Part shown: piece by piece, positions 35,716 through 50,760 of the stretch
How the letters are laid out: each line of letters opens with the position of its first letter
Numbering within the stretch: the stretch's first letter is position 1
Sequence record: MH791411.1
Strand: one strand, 5' to 3'
From: Escherichia phage Ecwhy_1
Length of the DNA: 64,000 nucleotides
The notes under the pieces: generated by a model
The model's input: only the letters and a program-made list of their open reading frames with translations
Database searches by the model: none
Told to the model about the DNA's origin: nothing
Made by a program: the position numbers and the translations under genes

Positions 35716-35718
35716 TAC

Positions 35719-36749: not shown

Positions 36750-36780
36750 TGCATGTTCTCCTTGAGTTAATGAAACTATA

Positions 36781-37023: not shown

Positions 37024-37080
37024 TTTGTTTCCCCCGTGTTGGTATGTACATATAGTACTAAAACATTTGAGTACTGTCAA

Positions 37081-37299: not shown

Positions 37300-37352
37300 T
37301 TTGTTTCTCCCGTGTTGGTATGTGTACATAGTACTAAAACAATTGAGTACTG

Positions 37353-37607
37353 TCAACGTGATATTAGTTTTATTTTCTTATTGTATTGTTGATGCTCATA
37401 AAGGTTTATCTTTCCTGTGTTCTCGATTACTATCCTGTTGTTAGTGTCCACGTCGATTACACGCAGTTTCCCGTTGCTTAACTTCCTAGGTAATAGGTTA
37501 CCATTAATAAACTCATTAGCAAGCTGTACGGCCTTTGTGATGATTCTCTGAGGTGCTTTATAGTGTACCCGTAAGATGTTATCTTTATATAGTTGAACCT
37601 TAATCAT
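37353..37607 (-). CDS. hypothetical protein
   Basis: 84-aa ORF. Confidence 0.4.
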   Translation of the reverse strand: MIKVQLYKDNILRVHYKAPQRIITKAVQLANEFINGNLLPRKLSNGKLRVIDVDTNNRIVIENTGKINLYEHQQYNKKIKLISR

Positions 37608-37625
37608 TTTGTTTGTCCTATAAAA

Positions 37626-37648
37626 AAGGCGGGAACTGATCCCGCCGT
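37626..37648 (-). terminator. rho-independent terminator
   Basis: minus-strand hairpin GGCGGGAtcagtTCCCGCC followed by T-run. Confidence 0.6.
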
Positions 37649-37668
37649 GTTGTTAGTACTGCAAGTTA

Positions 37669-38073
37669 TTAGATAACCTGGCGGCGTTTACTGTATACTG
37701 TTACACGATTACCCTTACGATCATGTCGGATCTCTTTCTGGTTGCGAATCAGTTCACTTGGACGCTTAAGGTTTGCCAGGTGATCCGCGTGAGTCCATGC
37801 GGTGTGGTTTACCTGTACTTTGATATCAGAATCAGCGATAAACTCATCTTGTGCGTCAAGTATTGCCGCCAGCATATCCGCTCGTTTTAGTTCTGCTGCT
37901 GTCAGTACTGGCTCAGGTGAATTCACAATATCAGAGATTTCTTTGAACTGTACGGCCCAGCGTTGACCTTTCGTTGCATCTTTGCCCATGTCTTTAAATG
38001 CTGCTCCTTCCTCGCGTGCAACAATACGGGCAGCTTCACGGGTAGCGTAGAATTTAGTAATCATGGTATACAT
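37669..38073 (-). CDS. hypothetical protein (paralog of 51079..51342)
   Basis: shared KFYATREAARI ... FKDMG ... RWA ... DRKGNRVTVY; start may be M4. Confidence 0.55.
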   Translation of the reverse strand: MYTMITKFYATREAARIVAREEGAAFKDMGKDATKGQRWAVQFKEISDIVNSPEPVLTAAELKRADMLAAILDAQDEFIADSDIKVQVNHTAWTHADHLANLKRPSELIRNQKEIRHDRKGNRVTVYSKRRQVI

Positions 38074-38159
38074 CCTATTAGTTGAGTTAGTACTACAAGT
38101 TAGAGTCTATTATAAAGTACTATCTGGGCAATGTCAAATAGTACTTTAAATGGATTCTA

Positions 38160-38483
38160 TTACATGTCTTTCTTACGTTTTACATCGTGGTAGCGAACTG
38201 TTATTTCTTTGTTGATCTCTTCCTCGATGCGATGAATAACTTTTTCTTTCGGGTTGAAACCTATAACGGTTTCTTTAATGATCTCCAAGCCCGTGTATTC
38301 GCCTTGTGTACCGTAACCGTATGTAAAGGTTTCGTGTCCCAGGTCTTCCCAGCGGTCGCCAATTAACGCAGACACGTAGCAAGAGTGGTAAGTATTGCCG
38401 TGTGAATCAGTCCACCGATTAACGTTAATGTCAAAGGAGGTTACAATTTTCAATTCTACTTTCTGGGCAAGGATCATAGCCAT
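38160..38483 (-). CDS. hypothetical protein (paralog of 45003..45326)
   Basis: shared RWTDSxGNTYHSC ... FTYGY ... VKRKKD. Confidence 0.55.
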   Translation of the reverse strand: MAMILAQKVELKIVTSFDINVNRWTDSHGNTYHSCYVSALIGDRWEDLGHETFTYGYGTQGEYTGLEIIKETVIGFNPKEKVIHRIEEEINKEITVRYHDVKRKKDM

Positions 38484-38570
38484 TTTTATTTCTCTCTCTT
38501 TGTTAGGAGGGGAACCATTCCCCTCGCTTGATGTAAACTATTATACAGTACTAAGATACTTTGTCAATAC

Positions 38571-38753
38571 TTATTTTTTGGAAAGTTTACGCATTAATTC
38601 TACGCTTTCTTGTGAACGTTTTGCTACCTGGCAAGCTGTATGGGCAGTAAACATTTTTGTATAGTCTGACGCTTTGCCACCGAACCGAGCGGCACGTTCA
38701 CGGGCACTTGGAACTAATACTATTTCTTTATTACAGATAGTGCACTTAGCCAT
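38571..38753 (-). CDS. small Cys-rich protein (possible zinc ribbon)
   Basis: trimmed to MAKCTICNK; CxxC ... HTAC spacing. Confidence 0.4.
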   Translation of the reverse strand: MAKCTICNKEIVLVPSARERAARFGGKASDYTKMFTAHTACQVAKRSQESVELMRKLSKK

Positions 38754-38841
38754 TTTTATTTCTCTCTCTTTGTTAGGAGGGGAACCGTTTCCCCTCACTT
38801 GATGTAAACTATTATACAGTACTAAGATACTTTGTCAATAC

Positions 38842-39117
38842 TTAAGTATTGTAAATGTCGTGAATAGTGATAAAGTTTTTACGACCGTAAACATGTAAAT
38901 CAGTATCAATGTAGTGCTTATCAAGTACATCCTCGACGCTTAAAGACGTGTCGTGAATATCTTCATAAAATTGTGGATCAACAATCGTGCTTAAGTCATC
39001 TGGCGTTAACTTATCGTTAAGGCATTGAACCGCCTGGATATCTGCTTCACGTTTCCATTGTTCCAGATTAGTAGTCAGTACTTGCTCGATTTCGTTAGCT
39101 GTAAGTAAAGTCCGCAT
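38842..39117 (-). CDS. hypothetical protein
   Basis: 91-aa ORF preceded by duplicated tandem-promoter leader. Confidence 0.45.
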   Translation of the reverse strand: MRTLLTANEIEQVLTTNLEQWKREADIQAVQCLNDKLTPDDLSTIVDPQFYEDIHDTSLSVEDVLDKHYIDTDLHVYGRKNFITIHDIYNT

Positions 39118-39578
39118 TTTAATGTTTCCTTATCAGTGGTTGATGTAAGTATTATACTCGTTTACTTTCTATTGTCAAACTATTTTATCAGGGGAGTTTT
39201 TCGTATGTCTTACTCCTGGACTACTTAACGGGGTTACTTATTTCGTTCCCCGTCCTGATGTAAAACATTATACTTGATTCTAAGTACAATGCAAGTACTT
39301 TTTTAAAAATAGTTTTCAGTACTAGCCACCAGCAAACAATAGATACATTTATGCACCCTGTGGGCTAATTTGTTTCTATGCGTATATAATAGCAAAGGGA
39401 CTGACCGGAGTCAATCCCTTTTTCAAATATTTTTAAACTTCTTTCGGGTTGCGATATGTGATAGCGTTCGGGTACATTTGTTTAATGTTATTCCATGCCT
39501 GGTTAACATTATAACCACTTGATCGAATCAGTTGGTTATTACCGACACCTTGAAACACTACTTCAAATAAGAATTCTT

Positions 39579-39752
39579 TCATGCTTTCACCTCTCGATCT
39601 GCTTTGCCTTTACGCCAGGCCGTTGCTAATTGTTCGCGTTGCCATAAGTCGAGTGATACGTAAAGTTTTGCATTATCACCCTTCGGATATTCGCCAGTAG
39701 TACCAATCCGATAAAACAGATCTTTCAGTACTGTTAATTCTACCTGGACCAT
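39579..39752 (-). CDS. hypothetical small protein
   Basis: trimmed to MVQVELTVLK. Confidence 0.4.
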   Translation of the reverse strand: MVQVELTVLKDLFYRIGTTGEYPKGDNAKLYVSLDLWQREQLATAWRKGKADREVKA

Positions 39753-39839
39753 TATACTTTCCTCTTTGTTAGGAGGGGAACTATTCCCCTTCCGATATAA
39801 AACATTATACACTTTATTCAGTACTGTGCAAGTACTTTT

Positions 39840-40052
39840 TTAATCTTTCAGCCAATGATCCTGAATGAATTTTTCACCGGAACCTTGCTGCATTGATTGT
39901 AACAGACGTTCGCGATGAGCGGCGGCGAATTGCTCAGTACTATGCGTTACACCTGGTTGATATCTGGATTCACCATTTGGGGCGATGTATTGTACATCCC
40001 ACGGTTTTTCGTTAGTATCAGACCATTTACGAACGATTAGTTGACCTTGCAT
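39840..40052 (-). CDS. hypothetical small protein
   Basis: 70-aa ORF, cassette upstream. Confidence 0.45.
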   Translation of the reverse strand: MQGQLIVRKWSDTNEKPWDVQYIAPNGESRYQPGVTHSTEQFAAAHRERLLQSMQQGSGEKFIQDHWLKD

Positions 40053-40135
40053 TTTTCTTTCCTCTTAGTGGGGAGAATCATTTCTCCCCTTCATGTAAAC
40101 TATTATACAGTACTGGATTGCATTGTCAATAGTTT

Positions 40136-40459
40136 TTATTCACCTTGTTTGAATATAGTTTTCTCCATTGATTCCATGATTGCAACCAATACAGCATGGA
40201 TCTCACTTAACGCGGCATCACTAAAAGCATTAATGAATAGGCAATCATTCTCGCGAATATTTTTAATGTACTTATCAGCAGTGGTTGCGAATTCATTCAA
40301 CGGCAGATCAAATGCTTTATCCCATAATGGATGGCGTAACTGTAACAGTACTGGATTATCACGATCACCAGGGGAAAACGTACCAGTGATGAAACATACG
40401 CCCGGAATACTTTCGAACTGGCAACGGACTTCCTTTGTGATAGTAGTATGAATGTACAT
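40136..40459 (-). CDS. hypothetical protein
   Basis: 107-aa ORF. Confidence 0.45.
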   Translation of the reverse strand: MYIHTTITKEVRCQFESIPGVCFITGTFSPGDRDNPVLLQLRHPLWDKAFDLPLNEFATTADKYIKNIRENDCLFINAFSDAALSEIHAVLVAIMESMEKTIFKQGE

Positions 40460-40486
40460 TTATTGTTATCCTCTATTAAATTAATA

Positions 40487-40675
40487 TTACAGTTTATGAA
40501 TTAATTCTTTATCTAAGCGATAGCGTACATTATTAATGGTAACAGCATTATTTTTAATGCTACGCTGTACGGGTCCACCAGCAATAACAAACGTTGCTTT
40601 ATTGCCCCGAACAATGATAGCACTTCCAGGATTACCGAAATCATCTTGTACTAAAATACTTGATAAGTTTTCCAT
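40487..40675 (-). CDS. hypothetical small protein
   Basis: 62-aa ORF, cassette upstream. Confidence 0.4.
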   Translation of the reverse strand: MENLSSILVQDDFGNPGSAIIVRGNKATFVIAGGPVQRSIKNNAVTINNVRYRLDKELIHKL

Positions 40676-40753
40676 TTTTATTTCCTCTTAGTAGGGGAAG
40701 ATGTTTCCCCTTGATGCAAGTACTATAACAGTACTGAAAACTAAATGCAAGTA

Positions 40754-41110
40754 CTATGATAAAATCATGATAGGATATTCACTATCTATCAATACCTCGA
40801 ATCCGAAACCTTCGTACCATTCTTTAAGATTAAAGGCGTTATCTTCTCCCGTATCGCATTCTAAGATGATACAATCTGAATCATCGGCGGCATCAATAAA
40901 GGCATTCATTAATTCGTTACCTTCACCATTGCCCCGACTATCAGGATCAACATAAAGAGAATCAATAAACGCTACACGGTCATAATCAAGATCCGGTGCA
41001 ATGATTCCACGTTTAACAAACCAGTACTGCAATTGTGCTACTTTGCCCTGTACTTGATAGCCAGTGATCTCGCCATTGTCAGTAGTACGCGTGATATGTT
41101 GTATTCCCAT
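40754..41110 (-). CDS. GNAT-family N-acetyltransferase-like protein
   Basis: motif-A-like VDPDSRGNGEGNELM and motif-B-like WYEGFGFE; short (118 aa). Confidence 0.45.
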   Translation of the reverse strand: MGIQHITRTTDNGEITGYQVQGKVAQLQYWFVKRGIIAPDLDYDRVAFIDSLYVDPDSRGNGEGNELMNAFIDAADDSDCIILECDTGEDNAFNLKEWYEGFGFEVLIDSEYPIMILS

Positions 41111-41173
41111 GATTACTATCCTCAGTTAAGATATAAAACATTATACACTATCTTTCAGTACTGTCAATACTTT

Positions 41174-41431
41174 TTATCTCATAGATCTATGCCAACAATT
41201 ACGCGGATCTCTTTTAAAAGTACTATCATGATCCTCCTGGCAAGTAATACAATACATGCACCCTATAACGGCCTGGCGTCGATTCTCAGGGATTTTATCG
41301 CCGCAGTCGAGGCAATGTACAAGTGATTCTCTTTGTGCGTTAATTTGCTTTCTAGCGTGGTTAACGGCGGCCTGAATCACTGCATGAATCTCGTCTTGTT
41401 CGGCCCCGTCTTTCGCGTATCCTACTGCCAT
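41174..41431 (-). CDS. TraR/DksA-family C4 zinc-finger protein
   Basis: CLDCGDKIPENRRQAV ... CITCQ matches CxxC ... IP..RR ... CxxC signature. Confidence 0.6.
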   Translation of the reverse strand: MAVGYAKDGAEQDEIHAVIQAAVNHARKQINAQRESLVHCLDCGDKIPENRRQAVIGCMYCITCQEDHDSTFKRDPRNCWHRSMR

Positions 41432-41594
41432 TATTTTAACCTCATTATAAAAATACTATAGTACTGTAATGCTACAATAATACTACTAGTGTTTATCTTA
41501 TTCAAACCATATGATACTACATATCCACCAGCATTACCACGAATAGTAACGCCTTTGTACTGTCTATATAAATTCAACTGCGTATATTGCCTTT

Positions 41595-41665
41595 GATCAA
41601 GAATTGATCAGAATTATACGCCTTATGCTAAATTGATCCAGTACTTTTTTGATCATTTATTGATC
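41595..41665. repeat. cluster of five TTGATC(A) repeats (5 GATC sites in 71 bp)
   Basis: GATC at 41595, 41606, 41635, 41651, 41662; in long leader upstream of TraR-like gene. Confidence 0.5.
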
Positions 41666-41760
41666 GATATTATATAGTTACATTTGTGCACCCTATGGGT
41701 TAGTGACGTTCTCGTCTTGATGTAAGTATTATGCCAGTACTGGAGGATATTGTCAATAGA

Positions 41761-41964
41761 TTATTTTAATTTTTTTCTGTCATTGATTAATGCTTTCAGT
41801 ACTATACTAATAACTTGCAATGATTCATCAATGACAATGAAATTATTCTCTTTCATTAGATGATAGTTACCATTGATTGTATATTCTAACGAGTACTGTT
41901 TACGTTTAATTTTTGATAATGTTTCTATTTGTTTTTGTACTGATTTCATGCTAATCATTGTCAA
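41761..41964 (-). CDS. hypothetical small protein
   Basis: 67-aa ORF. Confidence 0.4.
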   Translation of the reverse strand: MTMISMKSVQKQIETLSKIKRKQYSLEYTINGNYHLMKENNFIVIDESLQVISIVLKALINDRKKLK

Positions 41965-42063
41965 ACGTCCTGTAACGCATTCTAACGAGATAAACGGTTT
42001 AGTACTGGCATTGTATAGGGTAAATGATTAAAGCCCACCAGCGTTAACCAGTGGGCTATAATA

Positions 42064-42207
42064 TTACATCTTGCGGATAATCTTAACAGTATCTTTCACC
42101 GATTTACCGTTTTGCTGACATTGCTCGATCATCGCGTATTGTTCTGCGGTCAGATCCTCGCCAGTTTTTGCCAGTACTGCGTCGATGAATGAATCCAGTG
42201 CGATCAT
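42064..42207 (-). CDS. hypothetical small protein (47 aa)
   Basis: hand-translated ATG..TAA ORF; GCCCAC/GTGGGC terminator hairpin directly downstream. Confidence 0.35.
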   Translation of the reverse strand: MIALDSFIDAVLAKTGEDLTAEQYAMIEQCQQNGKSVKDTVKIIRKM

Positions 42208-42297
42208 TTTATTTCTCTCTTAGGTTAAGTTAACTACTGTTTATAAAACTTATTATACAGTACTATCAATCTATGTCAATAGTACTGGTAATATATT

Positions 42298-42477
42298 TTA
42301 GCGGTAGTCGTCGTATGCTTTATTCACCTGGCGAATATAACTTTCAAAGGCTTCGTCTACCGTTTCATACTCCCGAACATAATCACCATATGAAACTACA
42401 TACATACCTTTTTGATCTTCAAACGTCATGATGATAGAATCCAGACCAACGATTTCAGTTTTTGCGATGATAGCCAT
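42298..42477 (-). CDS. hypothetical small protein (59 aa)
   Basis: hand-translated ATG..TAA ORF in cassette-like spacing. Confidence 0.35.
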   Translation of the reverse strand: MAIIAKTEIVGLDSIIMTFEDQKGMYVVSYGDYVREYETVDEAFESYIRQVNKAYDDYR

Positions 42478-42560
42478 TTTTTAATTCCTTAGTAGTGTAG
42501 TTGATAAAAGTTATTATGTCAGTACTATCAAACTATGTCAATAGTACTGTGATAATATTT

Positions 42561-42773
42561 TTAGTTAATGATAGTCAGTGTAAAATTGTAATCACCGCAG
42601 CGATATAGCACGTTATTCCCAAATGTCCCAACTAATCGCACATCACACAAAACGCCGGTTTTTTCTTTTACTTCCTTGATACTTGTAACTCCTGTAATAT
42701 CTTTATTAAAGTATTCATGATCTGAAAATAAAACTTGTTTTGCATTTTTTAATTTCGACCGGATATTAGCCAT
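42561..42773 (-). CDS. hypothetical small protein
   Basis: 70-aa ORF with hairpin leader. Confidence 0.45.
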   Translation of the reverse strand: MANIRSKLKNAKQVLFSDHEYFNKDITGVTSIKEVKEKTGVLCDVRLVGTFGNNVLYRCGDYNFTLTIIN

Positions 42774-42869
42774 TTTGTTTTCTCTCTCTGTTAGTGGGGA
42801 GAAGTTTTTCTCCCCTTGATGTAAACTATTATACAGTACTATAATCTATTGTCAAACTATTTTTTTATA

Positions 42870-43211
42870 TTATTCGAAATCTTCTGGACCGGACTGATAA
42901 TCATCTTCACCGTATGCACTTTCTAACCGCTCGCCAGTGTGATCATCAGTTAGTGAGTCATCCTCATAGTTCACGTCTACGCCAGTGATGTAAAACTGGC
43001 TATCGTCTGGATCATTGAAATTAATTTTCTGTATGTTTACAATAACTGTATTGATGCCCAGGACACCGCCATCAGCCGTTACAAAGTACTGATAGTTTTC
43101 GCAACCGCCTGAATTGAAACCGTAATTAATTTCGGCCCGACCATCATTTAAACGCAGTGCCTGGGCGATGATTTCGTTTTCAAAGTTAGATTGAGCAATT
43201 GAGATAGTCAT
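42870..43211 (-). CDS. hypothetical acidic protein
   Basis: trimmed to MTISIAQSNF; acidic C-terminus. Confidence 0.45.
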   Translation of the reverse strand: MTISIAQSNFENEIIAQALRLNDGRAEINYGFNSGGCENYQYFVTADGGVLGINTVIVNIQKINFNDPDDSQFYITGVDVNYEDDSLTDDHTGERLESAYGEDDYQSGPEDFE

Positions 43212-43420
43212 GATTTGTTTCCTTATTACCAGGGGAAACCGTTTCCCCCTCTCGATGTAAAACATTATACGCTTATTGAGATAGTTTGCAAGTACTTTCT
43301 ACAAATACTTTTAAAATAGTTTTCAGTACTCAATACTCATATAATAGATACACTTATGCACCCTGTGGGCTAGTGAGCTATCTCTCAATGAATATATAAT
43401 AGCAAAATGGCTGACCGGAG

Positions 43421-43576
43421 TCAACCACTTTTTTCATTTATTTTTAGCTTTTAGAATCGCCGCCTTTCGCGTCATGCCTTGCTTGATGTATTCTTGTACT
43501 TTCGCTTTACGTGCATTCGCTTTATTTGCTTTCGTAAATGCCGAACAACTTTTATAGTTTAAACCTGTTGGATTCA
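43421..43576 (-). CDS. small basic protein (about 51 aa)
   Basis: hand-translated; Lys/Arg-rich; directly follows TM-peptide ORF; coordinates +/-1. Confidence 0.3.
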
Positions 43577-43667
43577 TTTAAATCACCATAAAGAATAGAT
43601 AGGTTACTAACAACGCCGCGATCAATGCACCGACCAGGGCCGAACTATAGTAAGCTAATGTTTTCAT
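43577..43667 (-). CDS. small hydrophobic peptide (about 29 aa, single TM helix)
   Basis: MKTLAYYSSALVGALIAALLVTYLFFMVI; ATGA overlap with upstream stop; coordinates +/-1. Confidence 0.3.
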
Positions 43668-43816
43668 TTTTTAGCCTGAAAGTAATGTTTAATTTGAGCG
43701 GCGGTCAGTGCACAATTACGCAGGAAGTTTTCTGTATAACTGCGGCGAGTACTGAAAGAGAATTGACCTTTGCCGTTACCGATAGTAACATCAAACCGAG
43801 CGTTGTATTGTTTCAT
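43664..43816 (-). CDS. hypothetical small protein
   Basis: trimmed to MKQYNARFDV after hairpin leader. Confidence 0.4.
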   Translation of the reverse strand: MKQYNARFDVTIGNGKGQFSFSTRRSYTENFLRNCALTAAQIKHYFQAKK

Positions 43817-43897
43817 TTTGATTCTCCTGTTATTGGGGAGAATCATTTCTCCCCTTCATGTAAAACATTATACAGTACTAAAAACTAATTGCAAGTA

Positions 43898-44044
43898 CTA
43901 TTTTTTAGATTTACGCAAACTTTCTACCATCTCAGGAGTAAGGCCCGGCGGGTAGGAAACTACTTCATCAACGAAACGTAAAGGGAATACCCCAGCGAAA
44001 GGTGAACGTGCTTTCTTAGTATTACTCTTTTTTGATGCTTTCAT
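43898..44044 (-). CDS. small basic protein (47 aa)
   Basis: hand-translated ATG..TAG ORF with promoter and hairpin upstream. Confidence 0.35.
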   Translation of the reverse strand: MKASKKSNTKKARSPFAGVFPLRFVDEVVSYPPGLTPEMVESLRKSKK

Positions 44045-44113
44045 TTCATATTCCTTAATTAGTGGGGAGAATCATTTCTCCCCTTCATGTAAAACATTAT
44101 ACGCGTTTAAAAA

Positions 44114-44323
44114 CTAATTGCAAGTACTATTTGAAAGTAAATGCTCATACGCTGCATTAACTACGTTTTCAATAACCGACTGTACAGAAAGATCCCCCAC
44201 GTCCTGGCTATAGTAGAAATCGCTTACAGTGGTGTCATCGTATGCAAATACTTTACCAGGTACTGCATCAATCACATACATATTAACCTTTAAGATGTCG
44301 ATCTTATCCTGTACAGTAAGCAT
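44114..44323 (-). CDS. hypothetical small protein
   Basis: 69-aa ORF. Confidence 0.45.
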   Translation of the reverse strand: MLTVQDKIDILKVNMYVIDAVPGKVFAYDDTTVSDFYYSQDVGDLSVQSVIENVVNAAYEHLLSNSTCN

Positions 44324-44328
44324 ATTAA

Positions 44329-44601
44329 TTAACCTTTTAAGTACTGGCTTAAGTAGTCTTGTTGATCTTCGGTGATTGCAGCCATCTTCCCTAGTACTGG
44401 ATTAATGATATAATCCCCTGTAACGTCCTGTAACGCATTCTCAGGCGGTTTAACGGCTGGGGTAGCCATAGCCATCGCCTGGACTTGTTCGACGCTATAA
44501 CGCTCATATAGGCGGCATTCTTCCGGTGTTAACATAGCATCAATGCGTTTCATTGGTTTAATGATGCTTTCAACTTCATTCAGTACTTGATTAACGTTCA
44601 T
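44329..44601 (-). CDS. hypothetical protein
   Basis: 90-aa ORF. Confidence 0.45.
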   Translation of the reverse strand: MNVNQVLNEVESIIKPMKRIDAMLTPEECRLYERYSVEQVQAMAMATPAVKPPENALQDVTGDYIINPVLGKMAAITEDQQDYLSQYLKG

Positions 44602-44652
44602 GGTATAATCCCCAATATAAGCGGCCTGAATCGACCGCTAACGATGTTTTGA

Positions 44653-44922
44653 TTAATAGGTGTATGGTTGACGTTCAAACAATGATTGCACGTTGTACGC
44701 CCCACTAATGGGCTTTGCTGGTAAATCAATTTTATATTGCTCACGCTTAAAGATAATAAAACGGCAATTGTTTTTAACATCAAAATTGATTGAACGTTCC
44801 AGTAGTTTACCATCGTGCACAAATACAAGATAACCGCTCGCTACTTGTTTTGTAGTACTGGTTGCAACCATAGACCGCCGAACATGTGTACCTGCGTCGA
44901 TTAAAGTACTGATATTTTTCAT
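44653..44922 (-). CDS. hypothetical protein
   Basis: 89-aa ORF. Confidence 0.45.
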   Translation of the reverse strand: MKNISTLIDAGTHVRRSMVATSTTKQVASGYLVFVHDGKLLERSINFDVKNNCRFIIFKREQYKIDLPAKPISGAYNVQSLFERQPYTY

Positions 44923-45002
44923 TATACGTTCCTCTTAAGTTAATTTAATTTCTTTCCCCTATGCAGACACTATATCAAAGTATCTGCATAAAGTAAAGCT
45001 AA

Positions 45003-45326
45003 TTAAAGATCTTTTTTGCGTTTAACATTCTGTACAGTACAATGCAACGGGATATTAAGATCATTGCACAAACGAGTAAGGGAGGTTTCATCAGTATTAA
45101 GCCCGTCTACTGATTCCTTTAATAGATCTAACGCCGTTTGTTGATATGCATCTTCATAGCCATAAGTAAATGATTCAACCGCCAGATCATTCAAACCGTT
45201 ATCCAGTTCGACGCTTACATGACAAGAATGATAAGTATTGCCATATGAATCAGTCCAACGTTTACCGTCAACATTGATTGCACGGATTGCAGCCAGGGAA
45301 ACGGTGTTAATGATAGTTTTAGCCAT
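45003..45326 (-). CDS. hypothetical protein (paralog of 38160..38483)
   Basis: shared RWTDSYGNTYHSCHV ... FTYGY ... VKRKKD. Confidence 0.55.
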   Translation of the reverse strand: MAKTIINTVSLAAIRAINVDGKRWTDSYGNTYHSCHVSVELDNGLNDLAVESFTYGYEDAYQQTALDLLKESVDGLNTDETSLTRLCNDLNIPLHCTVQNVKRKKDL

Positions 45327-45415
45327 TTTTGTATTCCTTAAATTAATATGTTGTCTTGATAAAATCTATTATGCCAGTACTATCAAACTATGTCAATAGT
45401 ACTGTGATAATATTT

Positions 45416-45628
45416 TTACTTACTTTCTTTCGCTGCTTTGTGCGTTGCCACTGCCATAACCACATCAGCACGAACAAAGTTTTTAACCGTGTCGCTGTAA
45501 TAATTGATCGCTTCATCAATATCTGCGAACATCCGATACATACCGCACCACGATACTTTATAACCTGCTTTCACTTCTTCCAGCTTAACCAGTGATTTGT
45601 TAACTTTGATTTTAGTAATGATAGCCAT
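45416..45628 (-). CDS. hypothetical small protein
   Basis: 70-aa ORF. Confidence 0.45.
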   Translation of the reverse strand: MAIITKIKVNKSLVKLEEVKAGYKVSWCGMYRMFADIDEAINYYSDTVKNFVRADVVMAVATHKAAKESK

Positions 45629-45707
45629 TTTATTTTCCTCAGTTGTCTTGATAAAATCTATTATGCCAGTACTATCAAACTATGTCAATAGCACTGTGAT
45701 AATATTT

Positions 45708-45851
45708 TTACTTACTTTTTGCTTTCTTGATTGCTTCCACCTGGTCGGCCCATTCTTTACCCCATACTTGTAAATTATAATGGTACTGGCAAAGAGCAAC
45801 GCCCCGCTTTAAACCCGTAATAGATTTCTGACCACATTGACAAGTTTTCAT
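45708..45851 (-). CDS. small Cys/His-containing protein (47 aa)
   Basis: hand-translated ATG..TAA ORF; CQCG ... CQYH spacing; hairpin leader upstream. Confidence 0.35.
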   Translation of the reverse strand: MKTCQCGQKSITGLKRGVALCQYHYNLQVWGKEWADQVEAIKKAKSK

Positions 45852-45937
45852 TTTAGTTTCCTTGTAGTGGGGAGAACCATTTTCTCCCCTTGATGTAATG
45901 TATTATACTTTATTCGATTTACTTTGCAAGTACTTTT

Positions 45938-46165
45938 TTAATTTAATTCATCAAGGCAAAGGATACGCTCAACGCCCAAATCAGTTAAACTAATCGACGG
46001 CACTTGATAGGTTTCAATGTATGCTACACTTGCCCACTGACCGAACTCATTAACGGCCCAGGTATTCATTGCATTTTGCAATTCCGCACCTTCCTTGTTG
46101 GTAATGACTGCAACTACTTGTTCGTTGCCAGTAGTACCAGATACGCGAGTAATGATAATAGCCAT
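45938..46165 (-). CDS. hypothetical small protein
   Basis: trimmed to MAIIITRVSG. Confidence 0.4.
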   Translation of the reverse strand: MAIIITRVSGTTGNEQVVAVITNKEGAELQNAMNTWAVNEFGQWASVAYIETYQVPSISLTDLGVERILCLDELN

Positions 46166-46406
46166 TGTTTTGATTCCTTTGATTTGGAAGGAGAACCGTT
46201 TCCCCCTCTCGATGTAAAACATTATACGCTAATCTCTTAATCGTGCAAGTACTTTTTATTACTTTTTGCAAAATACTTTAAACGCTCTCAATCGCGTTCT
46301 TACAGCCTTAACGCCACCAGCTAGGGCAATGCATCAGATAATCAGTTTAATGCGTTAGAATCGTTTCTAGGCGGTGCTGGTGGCATGGTAAACGATAAAC
46401 ACAAAA

Positions 46407-46430
46407 AAGCCCACCGTTTAAGGTGGGCTA
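46407..46430 (-). terminator. rho-independent terminator
   Basis: GCCCACC ... GGTGGGC hairpin followed by T6 on minus strand. Confidence 0.65.
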
Positions 46431-46450
46431 GTGATTCAGTACTTTAATTG

Positions 46451-46933
46451 TTATGCTTCAACTTTGCGATGAGATTCGATCCATTCCTCGCGAGTCATAC
46501 CGCTGGCGTTAATCGCGTCCAGTACTACCGCAATGCAGTTACCACGCACCGGAATCAGATATTCTTCCCCGTTGTCCAGTACTACCGCTACGCGTTCCTG
46601 AATCCATTTTTTGGCTTTTACTTCTGGCTTGTCTTCCCCATACTTAACCGCCAGGGCTTTTTGTGCCATCTCTGTAACTACTTCCAGATCCAATCCAACT
46701 ACTGCCGCCTGAATACTTTCGATTGTTGCTTGTAGTTCTGCTTCACGGGCCGCCTTTGCCGCTTCAATTTCTGCCGCTTTATTTGCTTGTAGTTCTTTCG
46801 CAGTACTGTACGCGATGTTAAAATTATTGCGTACCGCTTTCATGGTATCGTTATCCAGTTCAGCCAGGATCTCAGCCGCGACGTTAGTTTCATTTGCTAC
46901 CAGTGCTTTGATGAATGATTTTACATTAGCCAT
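46451..46933 (-). CDS. hypothetical protein with Ala/Glu-rich helical segment
   Basis: trimmed to MANVKSFIK; terminator directly downstream. Confidence 0.5.
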   Translation of the reverse strand: MANVKSFIKALVANETNVAAEILAELDNDTMKAVRNNFNIAYSTAKELQANKAAEIEAAKAAREAELQATIESIQAAVVGLDLEVVTEMAQKALAVKYGEDKPEVKAKKWIQERVAVVLDNGEEYLIPVRGNCIAVVLDAINASGMTREEWIESHRKVEA

Positions 46934-47142
46934 TTTATAAATCCTCAATTAAAGTTTAGTTTACGTTTATTAGTGTATCAAAGTTTTCTCGACGTGTCCA
47001 GTTTTTCGTTCGACTTACTGGCGGTCTACTTAGTGCTCCCCGTCTTGATGTAATACATTCTACGCTTTTCTGCGGTAATGTCAACTACTTTCTTAAAACT
47101 ATTTTCAAAGTATCTCAGTACTACGATACTACAAAAACAAAA

Positions 47143-47160
47143 AAGCCCACCAGGTGGGCT
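47143..47160 (-). terminator. rho-independent terminator
   Basis: GCCCACC/GGTGGGC hairpin plus T-run on minus strand. Confidence 0.6.
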
Positions 47161-47166
47161 ATGTAC

Positions 47167-47397
47167 TTAATCAGTGAGTAAAATATTAAACACTTTACCA
47201 TTTAACGTTATTGGTGCACTGCTACCAGGCACAAGATCCGTTAGTATACCTGCAATCGCTTTATCATTGGCTACCTTTCCAGTGTCCAACAGTACTACAG
47301 TACTGATAAGATTAACGCTCGTTTCAATATCATAATGCACGGCGTTAAGTAGTTGTGTAGTACTGCTTTCGTTAAGTAAAACAATTCGCTTAGTCAT
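47167..47397 (-). CDS. hypothetical small protein
   Basis: 76-aa ORF with terminator downstream. Confidence 0.45.
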   Translation of the reverse strand: MTKRIVLLNESSTTQLLNAVHYDIETSVNLISTVVLLDTGKVANDKAIAGILTDLVPGSSAPITLNGKVFNILLTD

Positions 47398-47418
47398 GAT
47401 GTTACCCCGTAGTATCTA

Positions 47419-47718
47419 TCAACGGCAATTAATAACGCCGGTATGAGTTACTTTCTCGGTATCCATTACAGTGACCGAACCGCGTTTAGCACTGGCATCA
47501 TAATAAATTGTCGTGCTACCGTTTTCGTCTTCTTCATGGAACGGGCCGTTTTTAAATGCTTCCGGCTGGATCTCTAAATCCTTTAATACAATCTCGCCAG
47601 TTCTTTCATCGGTCATTGCAACAGTGCACTGAATGAATTTTTCACTACTTACATCTAATGACGCATTAACAGCGAAAGAGGAAACAGATAAAGCCAGGGC
47701 GATGATTGCAATTTTCAT
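47419..47718 (-). CDS. secreted/periplasmic small protein (signal peptide)
   Basis: N-terminus MKIAIIALALSVSSFAVNA: charged-hydrophobic-AxA pattern. Confidence 0.5.
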   Translation of the reverse strand: MKIAIIALALSVSSFAVNASLDVSSEKFIQCTVAMTDERTGEIVLKDLEIQPEAFKNGPFHEEDENGSTTIYYDASAKRGSVTVMDTEKVTHTGVINCR

Positions 47719-47802
47719 TTGATTATCCTTAGTTACCAGGGGAAACCGTTTCCCCTTGCGATGTAAAATATTATACAGTACTAAAAACTAATTGCAAGTA
47801 CT

Positions 47803-48039
47803 TTATGATTTTTTATAAAACATTTCAGCAGTGATATTTTTACCCGTTGGCTGTACTTTATCCAGAATTTTTTGATGCCCTGGTCGTCCAAAGGAATATG
47901 ATCCGTAAACAGTAAACCAGTAGTTACCCTCAGTGTTTACATGTACAGCACAATAAGGAACACCACGCGATTCATCACTAGTAAAGTGTGATACCGTTCC
48001 CGTTACATTCGCAGACGTTGATTTGATTTGTTCGACCAT
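47803..48039 (-). CDS. hypothetical small protein
   Basis: 78-aa ORF, cassette upstream. Confidence 0.45.
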   Translation of the reverse strand: MVEQIKSTSANVTGTVSHFTSDESRGVPYCAVHVNTEGNYWFTVYGSYSFGRPGHQKILDKVQPTGKNITAEMFYKKS

Positions 48040-48147
48040 TTTCTTATTCCTTAGTTACCAGGGGAACCGCTCCCCCTATGCAAAACATTATACGCGTTTA
48101 AAAACTAATTGCAAGTATTTTAATAAAAAGTATTTGAAAAATAGTTG

Positions 48148-48290
48148 TTGACAAGTGCATCCAGTACTGGCATAATTACTACATCAAGACGAAACAGTCA
48201 CTAACCCACCGGGTGCCGAGATCCGTCTATTAAATGATTCAGTACTGAAAAAGTAACGGGGAGTTATTATCTCCCCGTGTTGTTATTTTG
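48148..48290 (+). ncRNA. candidate small RNA / orphan plus-strand transcription unit
   Basis: TTGACA-N17-CATAAT promoter (48148-48176), no ORF, ends at bidirectional terminator hairpin CGGGGAGttattatCTCCCCG plus T-run. Confidence 0.3.
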
Positions 48291-48504
48291 TAAGGTATAA
48301 ACAGAAGTCGCCTTTATTTGCTACGCCGCCAGTGTAACGCGAGGAATAGTTAGAAACGTCCTGGACTTCTGCTATTACCAGGGTATCATCATTCAATTCG
48401 TCGCAGAAGCAAACGGCTGGATCTTGTACGCCGATTTTGTCGGCATGTTCCCGCATAGATTTAACCAGTGCTTCCAGTTGGGAAAGAGTAGTGATATTAG
48501 CCAT
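48283..48504 (-). CDS. hypothetical small protein
   Basis: trimmed to MANITTLSQL. Confidence 0.45.
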   Translation of the reverse strand: MANITTLSQLEALVKSMREHADKIGVQDPAVCFCDELNDDTLVIAEVQDVSNYSSRYTGGVANKGDFCLYLTK

Positions 48505-48588
48505 TTTATTTTCCTCATTACCAGGGAGAACCATTTCTCCCTTTGATGTAAACCATTATACAGTACTGAAAACTAATTGCAAGTACTT

Positions 48589-48777
48589 TTAATTAAATTC
48601 CATAAAATCATTTTCAACGTGCACAACAATCTGATTATTTTTAAAGGACGCAGAAAACTCTATACAATCATAAACCGCTTTTTCTGTTACCAGACTATGA
48701 GCACCAATCGGATTAATTGGGGATTGAATTGTTTCAATCTCGTTACCTTGTTCATTAACGATTAAAATATTAAACAT
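48589..48777 (-). CDS. hypothetical small protein
   Basis: 62-aa ORF, ATG verified. Confidence 0.45.
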   Translation of the reverse strand: MFNILIVNEQGNEIETIQSPINPIGAHSLVTEKAVYDCIEFSASFKNNQIVVHVENDFMEFN

Positions 48778-48816
48778 TGCCGTTACTCCTGGATAGTGTT
48801 AACTCGATATAAAGTA

Positions 48817-48999
48817 TTATACGCCTTTATTGCTTAGTGTCCAGTGATCACGCATCATACGCCCCGCACGATCCCAGCTAGTAGGCATGGGTATGCCTTG
48901 CAATTCGTTAGGGGAGATCTCGACCTCGATCCCTACATCAATAACAGTCATTCCAGCTTTCGCAGCTTGCTCGCGGATAACCTCAGATAATGTTGTCAT
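48817..48999 (-). CDS. hypothetical small protein
   Basis: 60-aa ORF. Confidence 0.4.
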   Translation of the reverse strand: MTTLSEVIREQAAKAGMTVIDVGIEVEISPNELQGIPMPTSWDRAGRMMRDHWTLSNKGV

Positions 49000-49073
49000 G
49001 ATTAAAGCTCCTGGATAGTGTTAACTCGATATAAAGTATTATACAGTACTGAAAACTAATTGCAAGTACTTTT

Positions 49074-49334
49074 TTAATATTGTTTGTCGTCGTCTTCCTC
49101 GATGAATTGACCGACGAAATGATCTACTTTCGCTTTGAGGCTTTTATAATCTTCTTCTACTTCCGTTAAACGTTCCTGGTAGTATTCCAATGCTTCAAGA
49201 TACGCCGCCTCAGCAGTTTTTGCACGCATAGCTAAATTCATTCCACGCGTTTCATCAAATAGCCAATAACCATCGGTGCACTGGCTAATAGATAATGACT
49301 TGCTTAGTACTGTATAGCTAATTACTTTACTCAT
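49074..49334 (-). CDS. hypothetical protein
   Basis: 86-aa ORF with terminator-like hairpin downstream. Confidence 0.45.
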   Translation of the reverse strand: MSKVISYTVLSKSLSISQCTDGYWLFDETRGMNLAMRAKTAEAAYLEALEYYQERLTEVEEDYKSLKAKVDHFVGQFIEEDDDKQY

Positions 49335-49391
49335 TAGATAACCCTCAGTAAAGGCGGGAACTATTACCCGCCATTATCTCAGTACTGAATA

Positions 49392-49631
49392 TTACATTCC
49401 AACCATTGCAGCACGGATCGCAGTAGTGCTATACTTAAAGCCGTCCGGCGTTGTAGTAGTACCGTTGGCTTTTAATCTGCGGTACATACATTCCGCAGCA
49501 ATATCTTTAGTTCTACTTTGTGCGATGCAACTTTGAGCAAGCCGATACAATGACTCACCGTTATTAATCCAAAGGCTTACATTCCAATGAGTTTTGTTTT
49601 TGTGTCCGTTGTAAGTTTTAGTACTAGCCAT
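49392..49631 (-). CDS. hypothetical protein (paralog of 51432..51671)
   Basis: shared GHKNKTHWNVSLWINN ... TPDGFKYSTTAIRAAMVGM. Confidence 0.55.
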   Translation of the reverse strand: MASTKTYNGHKNKTHWNVSLWINNGESLYRLAQSCIAQSRTKDIAAECMYRRLKANGTTTTPDGFKYSTTAIRAAMVGM

Positions 49632-49721
49632 TTTTAAATCCTCGTTTGAGCGGGGAACCACTCCCCGCCTCGATATAAAGTATTATACGCTTTTAAACTT
49701 AGTTTGCAAGTACTTTTTAAA

Positions 49722-50333
49722 TTAATATTCGATTGATTCCACTACGCCATCAATAACATTGAATTGATACTCGTTACCCTCAATCAGTGCCGTAATGTTT
49801 TCAGTAGTGAATTGATCCTCATATGCATTCTCTAAATCACGGTACAACTTGCGGGACAATTCACGAATAGTTTCAGTGAGTAGTTCCTCAAGCTCATTAA
49901 CTAACGTTTCTTGTTTTGCGGTTAAATCAGTGTAAGCCGATTCAATGTACCCGCTTACAGTATTCTCATGCGAGTAGTGGGAGTGCGAACGTTTTACACT
50001 CATCGCCAAATCATCTTCATTCAGCAAGTGACGGATTGAGCGATACTTAGTTAATGCTCTTACCTTGCGTAAAAACTTCACTGCGTCAACGTGGTCAGTA
50101 CTGATTGATGCACCGTCACCCTGGGACCAAAAACCACTGAATTGTATTTCAGCGTCATTAATGCCATATTCCGGTAGTACTGTTTCTTTATAGTATTCAA
50201 TTTCACTTTCAGAAAAATAATTGTCGTTTGAGTTTTTTTCACGTTCCCGAACCAGTTCGATAGCTGACGTTTGTTGTTCTGCGTTCAATTCAGAAAAAGC
50301 CATAACATAAGTAGTAGTAGTGATAGTTTTCAT
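49722..50333 (-). CDS. hypothetical protein
   Basis: 203-aa ORF; FSGFWSQGDGASI motif of unknown affiliation; tandem promoters upstream. Confidence 0.5.
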   Translation of the reverse strand: MKTITTTTYVMAFSELNAEQQTSAIELVREREKNSNDNYFSESEIEYYKETVLPEYGINDAEIQFSGFWSQGDGASISTDHVDAVKFLRKVRALTKYRSIRHLLNEDDLAMSVKRSHSHYSHENTVSGYIESAYTDLTAKQETLVNELEELLTETIRELSRKLYRDLENAYEDQFTTENITALIEGNEYQFNVIDGVVESIEY

Positions 50334-50730: not shown

Positions 50731-50760
50731 TACCGGCAATTGTAAAGATTTGTAAACTGC

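What the first reader, a model, noticed from the sequence alone, without database searches (positions are those of the whole stretch)
43421..43816. Micro-operon of three very small ORFs including a 29-aa single-TM peptide
Three coupled ORFs (about 50, 29 and 51 aa) share one promoter and leader. The middle one is almost entirely hydrophobic (MKTLAYYSSALVGALIAALLVTYLFFMVI) and the last is Lys/Arg-rich. Such peptide sets can act as membrane-depolarising toxins, holin-like factors or inhibitors of host membrane complexes. The two smaller ORFs are below the ORF-track size cutoff and were found by hand.
Basis: inference. Interest (0 to 1): 0.4.

Follow-up and report, generated by a model that had tools for sequence, protein, structure and literature searches.

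The report
Three-gene early cassette with membrane micropeptide
A jumbo coliphage carries a real, tightly packed three-gene mini-operon whose middle gene encodes a conserved 29-residue membrane-spanning peptide that many annotations miss; it is an ordinary kind of phage early gene set whose function is still unknown.

Summary
One sigma-70-type promoter (43894-43867), a 5' hairpin leader, then ORF A (50 aa, 43816-43664), ORF B (29 aa, 43667-43578) and ORF C (47 aa, not 51; 43577-43434) joined by ATGA and TAAATG junctions, then a hairpin/T-run terminator (43431-43404). The window is an Asteriusvirus (121Q/PBECO4-like) jumbo phage. The cassette is one of 22 like-built small-gene cassettes and lies in the ~21-kb terminal repeat, where a related phage transcribes its genes early. 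A (phrog_7119) and C (phrog_29913) are annotated hypothetical proteins. B is annotated in only some records. B is intact in 34 of 34 relatives, and its changes are conservative. B-like peptides follow the A homolog in two other jumbo-phage lineages and share Y7, A14xxxA18, F25 and I29. A also occurs without B in rV5-like and CR3-like phages. C is restricted to this genus. No family, fold or literature match assigns a function. Most likely B is a non-lytic inner-membrane micropeptide that packs against a membrane partner early in infection. A holin role is disfavoured. A depolarising toxin is not excluded. Modest interest; new member of a known kind.

The parts
43867..43894 (-). Sigma-70-type promoter TTGCAA-16 nt-TATAAT, followed by the conserved extension GTTTTACA
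   Evidence: Promoter scan, 10 of 12 consensus. It is one of 22 near-identical promoter modules on the minus strand between 32.8 and 52.2 kb, against 0.03 expected by chance.
43835..43854 (-). 5'-proximal leader hairpin GGGGAGAA-AUGA-UUCUCCCC, starting about 5-7 nt after the inferred transcription start
   Evidence: RNA fold -13.9 kcal/mol, z -3.3, 0 of 200 shuffles as stable. Most sister cassettes have an equivalent hairpin with a different but complementary stem sequence.
43824..43828 (-). Shine-Dalgarno AGGAG, 7 nt upstream of the ORF A start codon
   Evidence: Read directly from the sequence.
43664..43816 (-). ORF A, 50 aa, soluble small beta-rich protein, phrog_7119 (function unknown)
   Evidence: PHROG E 7e-28. 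pN/pS 0.10, P 8e-7. AlphaFold2 pLDDT 91, four strands, two short helices and a final strand. Best solved-structure neighbours are SH3-like at Z no higher than 3.8. Homologs occur in RaK2-like, rV5-like and CR3-like phages.
43578..43667 (-). ORF B, 29 aa, single-pass membrane micropeptide (Lys2 at the N-terminus, hydrophobic run 10-29 to the C-terminus); its ATG overlaps the ORF A stop codon (ATGA)
   Evidence: Best 19-residue window has mean Kyte-Doolittle hydropathy 2.69 and summed Hessa dG -3.35. Intact in 34 of 34 records at 86-100% identity. 7 synonymous and 8 conservative changes, against 1-2/12-13 and 4/11 in the shifted frames. Related B-like peptides follow the A homolog in L022/L023 and in RaK2/K64-1/Muenster.
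43434..43577 (-). ORF C, 47 aa, Lys/Arg/Ala-rich helical hairpin, phrog_29913 (function unknown); its ATG directly follows the ORF B stop (TAAATG), with GGTGA 5 nt upstream
   Evidence: PHROG E 1.3e-21. Found only in Asteriusvirus-type sequences. All indels are in frame (9 and 15 nt) and the C-terminal half is invariant. pN/pS 0.33, P 0.002. AlphaFold2 model has helices 8-32 and 37-46, pLDDT 74.
43404..43431 (-). Intrinsic terminator: 12-bp stem, 4-nt loop, followed by UUUU
   Evidence: Terminator scan. Fold -16.9 kcal/mol, z -5.2. G17 annotates a terminator at the same place.

Best explanation
This is one self-contained early-type transcription unit of an Asteriusvirus jumbo phage. Host sigma-70 RNA polymerase starts at a near-consensus promoter. 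The mRNA begins with a stable hairpin, probably a 5' stabiliser. Ribosomes load at a strong Shine-Dalgarno before ORF A and pass to B and C through the ATGA and TAAATG junctions, so the three products are made together. Transcription ends at an intrinsic terminator. ORF A is a soluble 50-aa beta-rich mini-domain of a phage family found in several myovirus groups. ORF B is a genuine 29-aa single-pass inner-membrane micropeptide, oriented with the N-terminal Lys in the cytoplasm and the C-terminus at the periplasmic face. Its conserved Tyr7, Ala14-xxx-Ala18 and Phe25 form a helix-packing face. ORF C is a genus-specific basic helical hairpin. The most likely role of B (inferred, not shown) is to pack against another membrane protein, either a host inner-membrane complex or its own oligomer. 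In this reading B acts as a non-lytic modulator during host takeover or superinfection exclusion. A is a frequent but dispensable companion, and C is an unrelated passenger in the same transcript. Shown: the anatomy, the coding constraint and the cross-lineage conservation of the A-B neighbourhood. Inferred: early timing, membrane insertion, topology and partner binding. The confidence given (0.5) is a blend: about 0.85 for the anatomy and coding claims, about 0.4 for the partner-binding mechanism.
For: Anatomy. Phage identity and terminal-repeat location: vB_Ec-M-J annotates 'Direct Terminal Repeats' under the match; the fEgEco12 match lies at 8.8-9.7 kb; fEgEco12 repeat of 20,993 bp; the Muenster A'-B' pair lies inside the predicted terminal repeat. 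Early timing by analogy: 22 sigma-70 cassettes; CBB paper PMC5259590; PA5oct RNA-seq showing terminal-repeat genes transcribed early, PMC7318152. B is coding: intact in 34 of 34 records; conservative substitutions and a synonymous excess only in its own frame; extreme hydrophobicity that is effectively unique on the coding strand. A-B module: a B-like ORF immediately follows the A homolog in L022/L023 (A 72% identical), RaK2, K64-1 and Muenster, with TAATG or TTGA junctions. Sequence relatedness against composition-preserving shuffles: window-L022 p 0.0004, L022-Muenster p 0.0014, L022-RaK2 p 0.01. Invariant Y7, A14, A18, F25, I29. The RaK2-type B is intact in 9 of 9 Klebsiella jumbo-phage records, including KP13-7 where a 332-aa gene separates it from A'. 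Non-lytic context: neighbours are uncharacterised small proteins plus a DksA-like protein, with no endolysin or spanin. Precedent for an early small membrane protein that binds host membrane enzymes: PhiNM1 Gp11, PMC11237401.
Against: There are no expression, localisation or phenotype data for any of the three proteins. The selection signal on B within Asteriusvirus is weak taken alone (pN/pS 0.41, P 0.074). In Alcyoneusvirus it does not separate the B frame from one shifted frame. Window B versus RaK2 B is not significantly similar when compared directly (p 0.63), so homology rests on the L022 intermediate. A occurs without B in many phages, so an A-B functional partnership is not required by the data. 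No family, fold or PDB match assigns a function to A, B or C. A peptide this hydrophobic, with one N-terminal basic residue, also resembles the Ibs-type toxins (my own knowledge), so partner binding and membrane damage cannot be told apart from sequence.
Confidence: 0.5

Rival explanations
1. B is a membrane-damaging peptide, either a type-I-toxin-like depolariser or a holin/pinholin-like hole former, and it acts by itself to collapse the proton-motive force.
For: It is very short and extremely hydrophobic, with a single N-terminal basic residue. In composition it resembles Ibs/ShoB-type toxins (my own knowledge). Small-xxx-small motifs also support self-oligomerisation.
Against: The promoter is of the early sigma-70 type and the cassette sits in the terminal-repeat early array, not in a lysis cassette. 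No endolysin or spanin lies nearby. B lacks the hydrophilic charged C-terminal tail typical of holins, because the sequence ends inside the hydrophobic run. It matches no Pfam, NCBIfam or PHROG toxin or holin family. No Rfam antisense RNA was found, and no opposite-strand promoter stands out above the chance level. Early collapse of membrane energy would harm a jumbo phage that has a long replication programme (inference).
Confidence: 0.17
2. B is the membrane anchor of a two-part module. It recruits the SH3-like protein A to the inner membrane, by non-covalent binding or by occasional -1 slippage on the A6 run at the junction (GCT AAA AAA TGA) that would fuse A to B. A is then the effector at the membrane.
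For: A-B adjacency with overlapping or abutting start and stop codons is conserved in three lineages. The Asteriusvirus junction sits on an invariant run of six A residues, with B in the -1 frame.
Against: A family members in rV5-like and CR3-like phages and in L026, L027 and L028 have no B. KP13-7 keeps B with a 1-kb gene inserted between A' and B. The junction sequences and relative frames differ between lineages (TAATG, TTGA, TAA-A-TTG), so no slippery site is conserved. No natural A-TM fusion exists among the family representatives.
Confidence: 0.12
3. B is not a functional peptide. The open frame is a by-product: a translated spacer that merely relays ribosomes from A to C, or a chance ORF in U-rich DNA.
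For: Selection statistics on B alone are marginal (P 0.074; one search is not discriminating). Most annotation pipelines skip it.
Against: It is intact, with invariant length and junctions, in 34 of 34 records. All eight amino-acid changes are conservative. Hydrophobic peptides with the same Y..AxxxA..F pattern sit at the same position in lineages where the nucleotide sequence has diverged and where the downstream gene is not C. B is retained in KP13-7 without A upstream. It is an extreme hydrophobicity outlier.
Confidence: 0.06

Closest known systems
Small early-gene membrane proteins of phages that bind host membrane machinery (example: Staphylococcus phage PhiNM1 Gp11, which binds MurG and DivIC; PMC11237401)
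   Same: A phage early-region product that is small and membrane-embedded, with no enzymatic domain; the inferred mode of action is binding a larger membrane protein.
   Different: There is no sequence relationship. The host is Gram-negative. B is a bare 29-aa TM helix with almost no extramembrane residues. The target, toxicity and timing are all untested here.
Bacterial small regulatory inner-membrane proteins of 50 aa or less (AcrZ, KdpF, MgtS, CydX, PmrR class; my own knowledge)
   Same: The size (29 aa, like KdpF and PmrR), the single TM helix, the small-residue packing motif, and the fact that gene callers miss it.
   Different: It is phage-encoded, it matches none of these families, it has no homolog in 5,426 E. 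coli genomes, and its partner is unknown.
Type I toxins of the Ibs/ShoB/TisB kind (my own knowledge; survey in PMC2887945)
   Same: A peptide of 19-35 aa that is almost purely hydrophobic, with a basic residue near the N-terminus.
   Different: No antisense RNA partner was detected, there is no family match, it sits mid-operon with translational coupling behind a strong constitutive-type promoter, and it is carried by a virulent phage rather than a chromosome or plasmid.
Phage holins and pinholins
   Same: A phage-encoded small membrane protein.
   Different: Holins are usually 60 aa or longer, have a charged C-terminal tail, and sit in late lysis cassettes beside an endolysin. None of this applies here.
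Pre-early or early small-gene arrays in phage terminal repeats (T5 first-step-transfer region, my own knowledge; PA5oct terminal-repeat early genes, PMC7318152; CBB early region, PMC5259590)
   Same: Location in a long direct terminal repeat, many short ORFs each behind a strong sigma-70 promoter, and a presumed host-takeover function.
   Different: Early timing has not been measured for Asteriusvirus. The uniform promoter plus 5'-hairpin cassette design seen here was not described in the papers I read.

Membership tests
phrog_7119 (ORF A family, function unknown) | Significant full-length match to the family profile | tested here: met
   E 7.3e-28, residues 1-50 on profile positions 3-52 of 52. 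SHEFM2K annotates the ortholog as phrog 7119.
phrog_29913 (ORF C family, function unknown) | Significant full-length match to the family profile | tested here: met
   E 1.3e-21, residues 1-47 on profile positions 1-45 of 45.
Holin / pinholin | At least one TM segment followed by a hydrophilic, charged C-terminal tail | tested here: not met
   B ends ...TYLFFMVI-stop with no residue after the hydrophobic run, and its only charged residue is Lys2.
Holin / pinholin | Located in a lysis cassette next to endolysin and spanin genes, under late control | tested here: not met
   The promoter is of the sigma-70 early type. The ten flanking genes are of unknown function or are DksA-like and acetyltransferase-like.
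Holin / pinholin | Forms lethal membrane lesions that release endolysin | not testable with these tools
   This needs expression and lysis assays.
Type I toxin-antitoxin (Ibs, ShoB, TisB, Hok, Ldr) | Small hydrophobic peptide with one TM helix | tested here: met
   29 aa, with a summed Hessa dG of -3.35 over residues 11-29.
Type I toxin-antitoxin (Ibs, ShoB, TisB, Hok, Ldr) | Cis- or trans-encoded antisense RNA antitoxin | tested here: inconclusive
   No Rfam family was found in 32-53 kb. The only opposite-strand promoter-like site near the operon is a 9-of-12 match, which is at the chance level. An uncatalogued sRNA cannot be excluded.
Type I toxin-antitoxin (Ibs, ShoB, TisB, Hok, Ldr) | Sequence membership in a known toxin family | tested here: not met
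   No hit in Pfam or NCBIfam. The only PHROG hit is a non-significant match to an unknown family.
Small regulatory inner-membrane proteins (AcrZ/KdpF/MgtS class) | 50 aa or less, a single TM helix, and physical binding to a larger membrane complex | not testable with these tools
   Size and TM helix are met, and a conserved AxxxA packing motif is present. Binding needs two-hybrid or co-purification experiments.
Conserved A-B two-gene module of Rak2-like jumbo phages (proposed here) | A hydrophobic micropeptide ORF immediately downstream of, and overlapping or abutting, the phrog_7119 gene | tested here: met
   Asteriusvirus 18 of 18 aligned copies; L022 and L023; RaK2, K64-1 and Muenster. Exceptions: KP13-7 has an insertion, and L026 has a different 59-aa soluble ORF in that slot.
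Translationally coupled operon | Stop and start codons overlap or abut, with no intergenic spacer | tested here: met
   ATGA at the A/B junction and TAAATG at the B/C junction, invariant in 18 copies. Actual reinitiation was not measured.

The most novel reading that the evidence does not exclude
A and B form a conserved two-component membrane-targeting module of Rak2-like jumbo phages. The 29-38-aa peptide, through its Y..AxxxA..F face, docks onto a specific host inner-membrane complex and brings along the SH3-like protein A. This might occur in Asteriusvirus partly as a frameshift fusion on the A6 run. The result would be a previously undescribed early host-takeover, superinfection-exclusion or anti-defence device.
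Probability: 0.12. Interest if true: 0.55.

Novelty: new member of a known kind. Interest (0 to 1): 0.3.

Why it matters
Jumbo phages of the 121Q/RaK2 clade carry hundreds of tiny early genes of unknown function, and standard gene callers silently drop the smallest ones. This case shows that a 29-codon ORF skipped by many of the annotations examined here is a conserved membrane micropeptide with a recognisable cross-lineage signature. It also gives a concrete, cheap target for testing how such phages act on the host inner membrane early in infection. The gain is incremental, because small hydrophobic early phage proteins are a known category and nothing here points to a new principle.

Tried and rejected
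1. Family assignment: Pfam, PHROGs and NCBIfam scans of A, B and C returned only unknown-function PHROGs. The sub-threshold hits (SAM_SMF for A, aureocin A53 and SUV3_C for C) were rejected because they fall below the curated cut-offs.
2. PDB profile search for A gave weak homeodomain helix2-helix3 matches (E 1e-3 to 1). I considered a helix-turn-helix reading but dropped it, because the confident AlphaFold2 model is a beta-rich mini-domain rather than a three-helix bundle.
4. The word-indexed homology search found few relatives, and the exhaustive HMMER search found only 7 cluster representatives for A. One of these, P0013, is an FG-GAP-like repeat protein that matches only the GNGxGxFSFS hairpin, and I discarded it as a motif match.
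5. The IMG/VR locus search returned only 121Q itself.
7. tblastn with the L022-type B peptide found no phage record, so that lineage is known only from metagenomes.
8. The pairwise pN/pS test on RaK2-type B was not discriminating between frames.
9. There is no Rfam family in the array and no E. coli chromosomal or prophage homolog of the operon.
10. The phAPEC6 and fEgEco12 papers say nothing about promoters or these genes.

Full report
**1. What is there**

The three ORFs lie on the minus strand.
- ORF A: 43816..43664, 50 aa, MKQYNARFDVTIGNGKGQFSFSTRRSYTENFLRNCALTAAQIKHYFQAKK.
- ORF B: 43667..43578, 29 aa, MKTLAYYSSALVGALIAALLVTYLFFMVI.
- ORF C: 43577..43434, 47 aa, MNPTGLNYKSCSAFTKANKANARKAKVQEYIKQGMTRKAAILKAKNK.

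The A stop and B start overlap (ATGA), and the B stop is followed directly by the C start (TAAATG).

Upstream lies a TTGCAA-16-TATAAT promoter at 43894..43867. A hairpin, GGGGAGAA/UUCUCCCC at 43854..43835, folds at -13.9 kcal/mol with z -3.3. An AGGAG Shine-Dalgarno sits 7 nt before ORF A. Downstream, a 12-bp hairpin plus a U-run at 43431..43404 folds at -16.9 kcal/mol with z -5.2. The finding's coordinates therefore bracket one complete transcription unit.

**2. Genomic setting**

The window is 90-98% identical to Asteriusvirus jumbo coliphages such as 121Q, PBECO4, G17, phAPEC6 and JNE01. The promoter with its extension (TATAATGTTTTACA) recurs 22 times on the minus strand between 32.8 and 52.2 kb, where 0.03 matches are expected by chance. 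Most copies are followed by a 5'-proximal GC-rich hairpin. The stem sequence differs between cassettes but remains complementary. The operon is thus one cassette in a long array of short genes.

In fEgEco12 the homologous stretch lies at 8.8-9.7 kb of a genome with a 20,993-bp direct terminal repeat. vB_Ec-M-J annotates "Direct Terminal Repeats" over it. In Klebsiella phage Muenster the homologous A'-B' pair lies in the predicted terminal repeat.

For the related phage CBB, the sigma-70-promoter region full of short ORFs is presumed to be early (PMC5259590). For PA5oct, RNA-seq showed that most terminal-repeat genes are highly transcribed early (PMC7318152). Early expression of this cassette is therefore a well-motivated inference. 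It is not a measurement.

The neighbouring cassettes encode uncharacterised small proteins. Further along are a DksA-like zinc-finger protein and an acetyltransferase-like protein. No lysis genes are present.

**3. Are the ORFs real genes?**

A and C are annotated as hypothetical proteins in most relatives (and others). They belong to phrog_7119 and phrog_29913, both of unknown function.

B falls in an unannotated gap in many records, including JNE01, UE-S1, G17, BF17, A4, slurp01, UB, PBECO4, SP27 and ph0011. It is called as a CDS in phAPEC6 (gp520c), SHEFM2K, ELP-22, SD-15_S21 and E9.1, and its counterpart is called in K64-1 as gp442.

tblastn finds B at full length in 34 of 34 Asteriusvirus records, at 86-100% identity. 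I aligned 18 copies of the operon. All three ORFs are intact in every copy, except that in two copies a 1-nt deletion in the A-run just after the ORF C stop codon removes that stop, so C reads through there. Both junctions are invariant. All indels in C are in frame (9 and 15 nt).

| ORF or frame | pN/pS | P (synonymous excess) |
|---|---|---|
| A | 0.10 | 8e-7 |
| C | 0.33 | 0.002 |
| B | 0.41 | 0.074 |
| B region, frame +1 | 4.2 | 0.98 |
| B region, frame +2 | 0.9 | 0.53 |

All eight amino-acid changes in B are conservative: K/R, S/T, L/F, L/V, V/I, G/V, L/M and T/A. B is the second most hydrophobic of 277 ATG-ORFs of 25-60 aa in the window. It is the only strongly hydrophobic hidden mini-ORF on the coding strand of the array; one marginal GTG-started ORF also passed the cut-off.

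**4. Evidence from other lineages**

ORF A has relatives in Klebsiella jumbo phages (RaK2, K64-1, Muenster; about 54% identity), rV5-like phages (47-49%) and CR3-like phages (46%). A metagenomic relative is 72% identical (P0003; loci L022 and L023).

| Lineage | What follows the ORF A homolog |
|---|---|
| L022/L023 | 33-aa hydrophobic ORF ending FLFFTLI (window B ends YLFFMVI) |
| RaK2, K64-1 | TAATG-coupled 38-aa hydrophobic ORF, then ATGA into the next gene |
| Muenster | Same arrangement, but a TTGA junction (TTG start, TGA stop) |
| rV5, CR3, L027 | No hydrophobic ORF |
| L026 | A 59-aa soluble ORF in that slot |
| L028 | A 28-aa basic ORF in that slot |
| KP13-7 | A 332-aa gene with no Pfam domain, then B intact |

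I tested relatedness of the B-like peptides against composition-preserving shuffles.

| Pair | p |
|---|---|
| window B vs L022 B | 0.0004 |
| L022 B vs Muenster B | 0.0014 |
| L022 B vs RaK2 B | 0.01 |
| window B vs RaK2 B | 0.63 |

Homology between the window peptide and the RaK2-type peptide is therefore transitive, through the L022 intermediate. The joint alignment has invariant Y7, A14, A18, F25 and I29, which is a Tyr followed by an AxxxA helix-packing spacing. The RaK2-type peptide is intact in 9 of 9 Klebsiella jumbo-phage records.

ORF C has no relative outside Asteriusvirus-type sequences. In RaK2 and L022 the gene after B is an unrelated ~101-aa protein.

In summary, A is a widespread small phage protein, B is a micropeptide family that rides behind A in three jumbo-phage lineages, and C is a genus-specific passenger.

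**5. What the proteins look like**

- ORF A gives a confident AlphaFold2 model (pLDDT 91). It has four short strands, two short helices and a terminal strand.
  - The nearest solved folds are SH3-like small barrels at Z no higher than 3.8.
  - In BFVD it matches only its own uncharacterised family.
  - A sub-threshold homeodomain-like sequence match and a sub-threshold Pfam SAM_SMF hit are not supported by the model.
- ORF C models as a basic helix-turn-helix hairpin. Only the C-terminal half is confident (pLDDT 74 overall), and there is no structural or PDB-sequence neighbour.
- ORF B has one charged residue (Lys2) and a hydrophobic run from residue 10 to the C-terminus. This predicts an N-in, C-out single-pass helix with no extramembrane tail (the topology follows from the positive-inside rule and is an inference).

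None of the three proteins matches any NCBIfam model. The operon has no homolog in 5,426 complete E. coli genomes. No Rfam family lies in the array.

**6. Mechanism**

The following are shown: a promoter-to-terminator unit, overlapping or abutting start and stop codons, coding constraint on all three ORFs, and cross-lineage conservation of the A-B arrangement and of the B motif. The following are inferred: early sigma-70 transcription, protection of the 5' end by the hairpin, coupled translation, and membrane insertion of B.

My preferred reading is that B is a non-lytic inner-membrane micropeptide. It would use its conserved small-xxx-small face to pack against another membrane protein, either a host complex or itself, during early infection. 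It would then resemble bacterial regulatory micropeptides and the early membrane protein Gp11 of phage PhiNM1, which binds MurG and DivIC (PMC11237401). I put about 0.85 on the anatomical and coding claims and about 0.4 on this mechanism.

The rivals are as follows.
- **A depolarising toxin or holin-like peptide (0.17).** The composition is compatible with Ibs-like toxins. However, the early cassette context, the absence of lysis genes, the absence of a C-terminal tail and the absence of a family match all argue against a holin, and none of the evidence specifically supports a toxin.
- **B as a membrane anchor for A (0.12).** This includes a speculative -1 slip on the invariant A6 run at the junction. 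It is weakened by the many phages that carry A without B and by the non-conserved junctions.
- **A non-functional relay or chance ORF (0.06).** The conservation data contradict this.

**7. Novelty and verdict**

Small hydrophobic proteins in phage early regions are a known category. A and C are already in PHROGs, and B is already a CDS in several GenBank records.

What this analysis adds is:
- evidence that B is a conserved micropeptide family with a Y..AxxxA..F signature linked to phrog_7119 in three jumbo-phage lineages;
- the finding that C is an unrelated passenger in the same transcript;
- the observation that the cassette shares a uniform promoter plus 5'-hairpin design with 21 neighbouring cassettes.

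The function remains unknown. I rate the novelty as a new member of a known kind, and interest at 0.3.

Noticed in passing
window 32790-52210, minus strand: There are 22 near-identical promoter modules (TTGCAn-16-TATAATGTTTTACA), each heading a cassette of one to a few short ORFs. Most are followed about 6 nt later by a GC-rich hairpin. The stem sequence differs between cassettes but stays complementary (GGGGAGAA/TTCTCCCC, GCGGGAA/TTCCCGC, GTGGGGAA/TTCCCCAC, ACGGGG/CCCCGT). This looks like a selected 5' mRNA element, either a stabiliser or a regulator binding site. No Rfam family matches it.
   Followed up: partly
window 43434-43577 (ORF C), and L001-L021: ORF C exists in two allelic N-terminal forms (NPTGLNYKSCSAFTKA versus NPNG[IL]IYSTPKTKA). 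It has in-frame 9-nt and 15-nt indels and an invariant C-terminal half (KV.EYIKQGMTRKAA). The mosaic distribution among otherwise close genomes suggests recombination within the gene.
   Followed up: partly
window 43323-43431, minus strand: A second promoter-like site (TTGACT-17-TATTAT with a TG extension, 43424..43396) overlaps the operon's terminator. About 110 nt of conserved spacer follow before the next cassette's promoter. PHANOTATE-type annotations call a 33-aa ORF here in SHEFM2K, ELP-22, SD-15_S21 and E9.1. It has no PHROG and overlaps the terminator, so it may be an over-call or a small RNA.
   Followed up: no
window 43664-43672 (A/B junction GCT AAA AAA TGA): An invariant run of six A residues lies immediately before the ORF A stop codon, with ORF B in the -1 frame. 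Ribosomal or transcriptional slippage there would produce a 79-aa A-B fusion, that is, a tail-anchored form of A. The junction is not conserved in RaK2, Muenster or L022.
   Followed up: no
L030 261-1259 (Klebsiella phage KP13-7, OP617745.1 140860-141858): A 332-aa ORF with no Pfam domain is inserted exactly between the ORF A homolog and the B-type micropeptide, and it changes the C-terminus of the A homolog. It may be a mobile or moron gene.
   Followed up: partly
window 43898-44044, minus strand: The upstream cassette has a near-identical promoter and leader (44123..44088). It encodes a 48-aa Lys-rich protein (MKASKKSNTKKARSPFAGVFPLRF...) with no PHROG or Pfam match.
   Followed up: no
window 41174-41431 and 40754-41110, minus strand: A DksA-like zinc-finger protein (phrog_54, E 8e-19) and an acetyltransferase-like protein lie within the same cassette array. 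They are candidate early modifiers of host transcription or host proteins.
   Followed up: no
phage records MG065646, MG065659, MG065661, MG065666, MG065672: Records named 'Campylobacter phage' carry an ORF A homolog identical in score to those of E. coli rV5-like phages, and they have rV5-like genome sizes. They look like mislabelled or contaminating rV5-like coliphage genomes.
   Followed up: no
P0013 (347 aa): The N-terminal hairpin motif of ORF A (TIGNGKGQFSFS) matches the repeated blade motif (ISNGNGTFSFS) of an FG-GAP/VCBS-like repeat protein. This is probably convergent beta-hairpin sequence rather than homology.
   Followed up: no
L028 1379-1465: In a distant metagenomic relative, the ORF A homolog is followed 2 nt later by a 28-aa highly basic ORF (MFQRIMLKTKADRNKPHGKPGKKKDKKA). 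It is reminiscent in composition of ORF C but unrelated in sequence. Whether it is a real gene is unknown.
   Followed up: no
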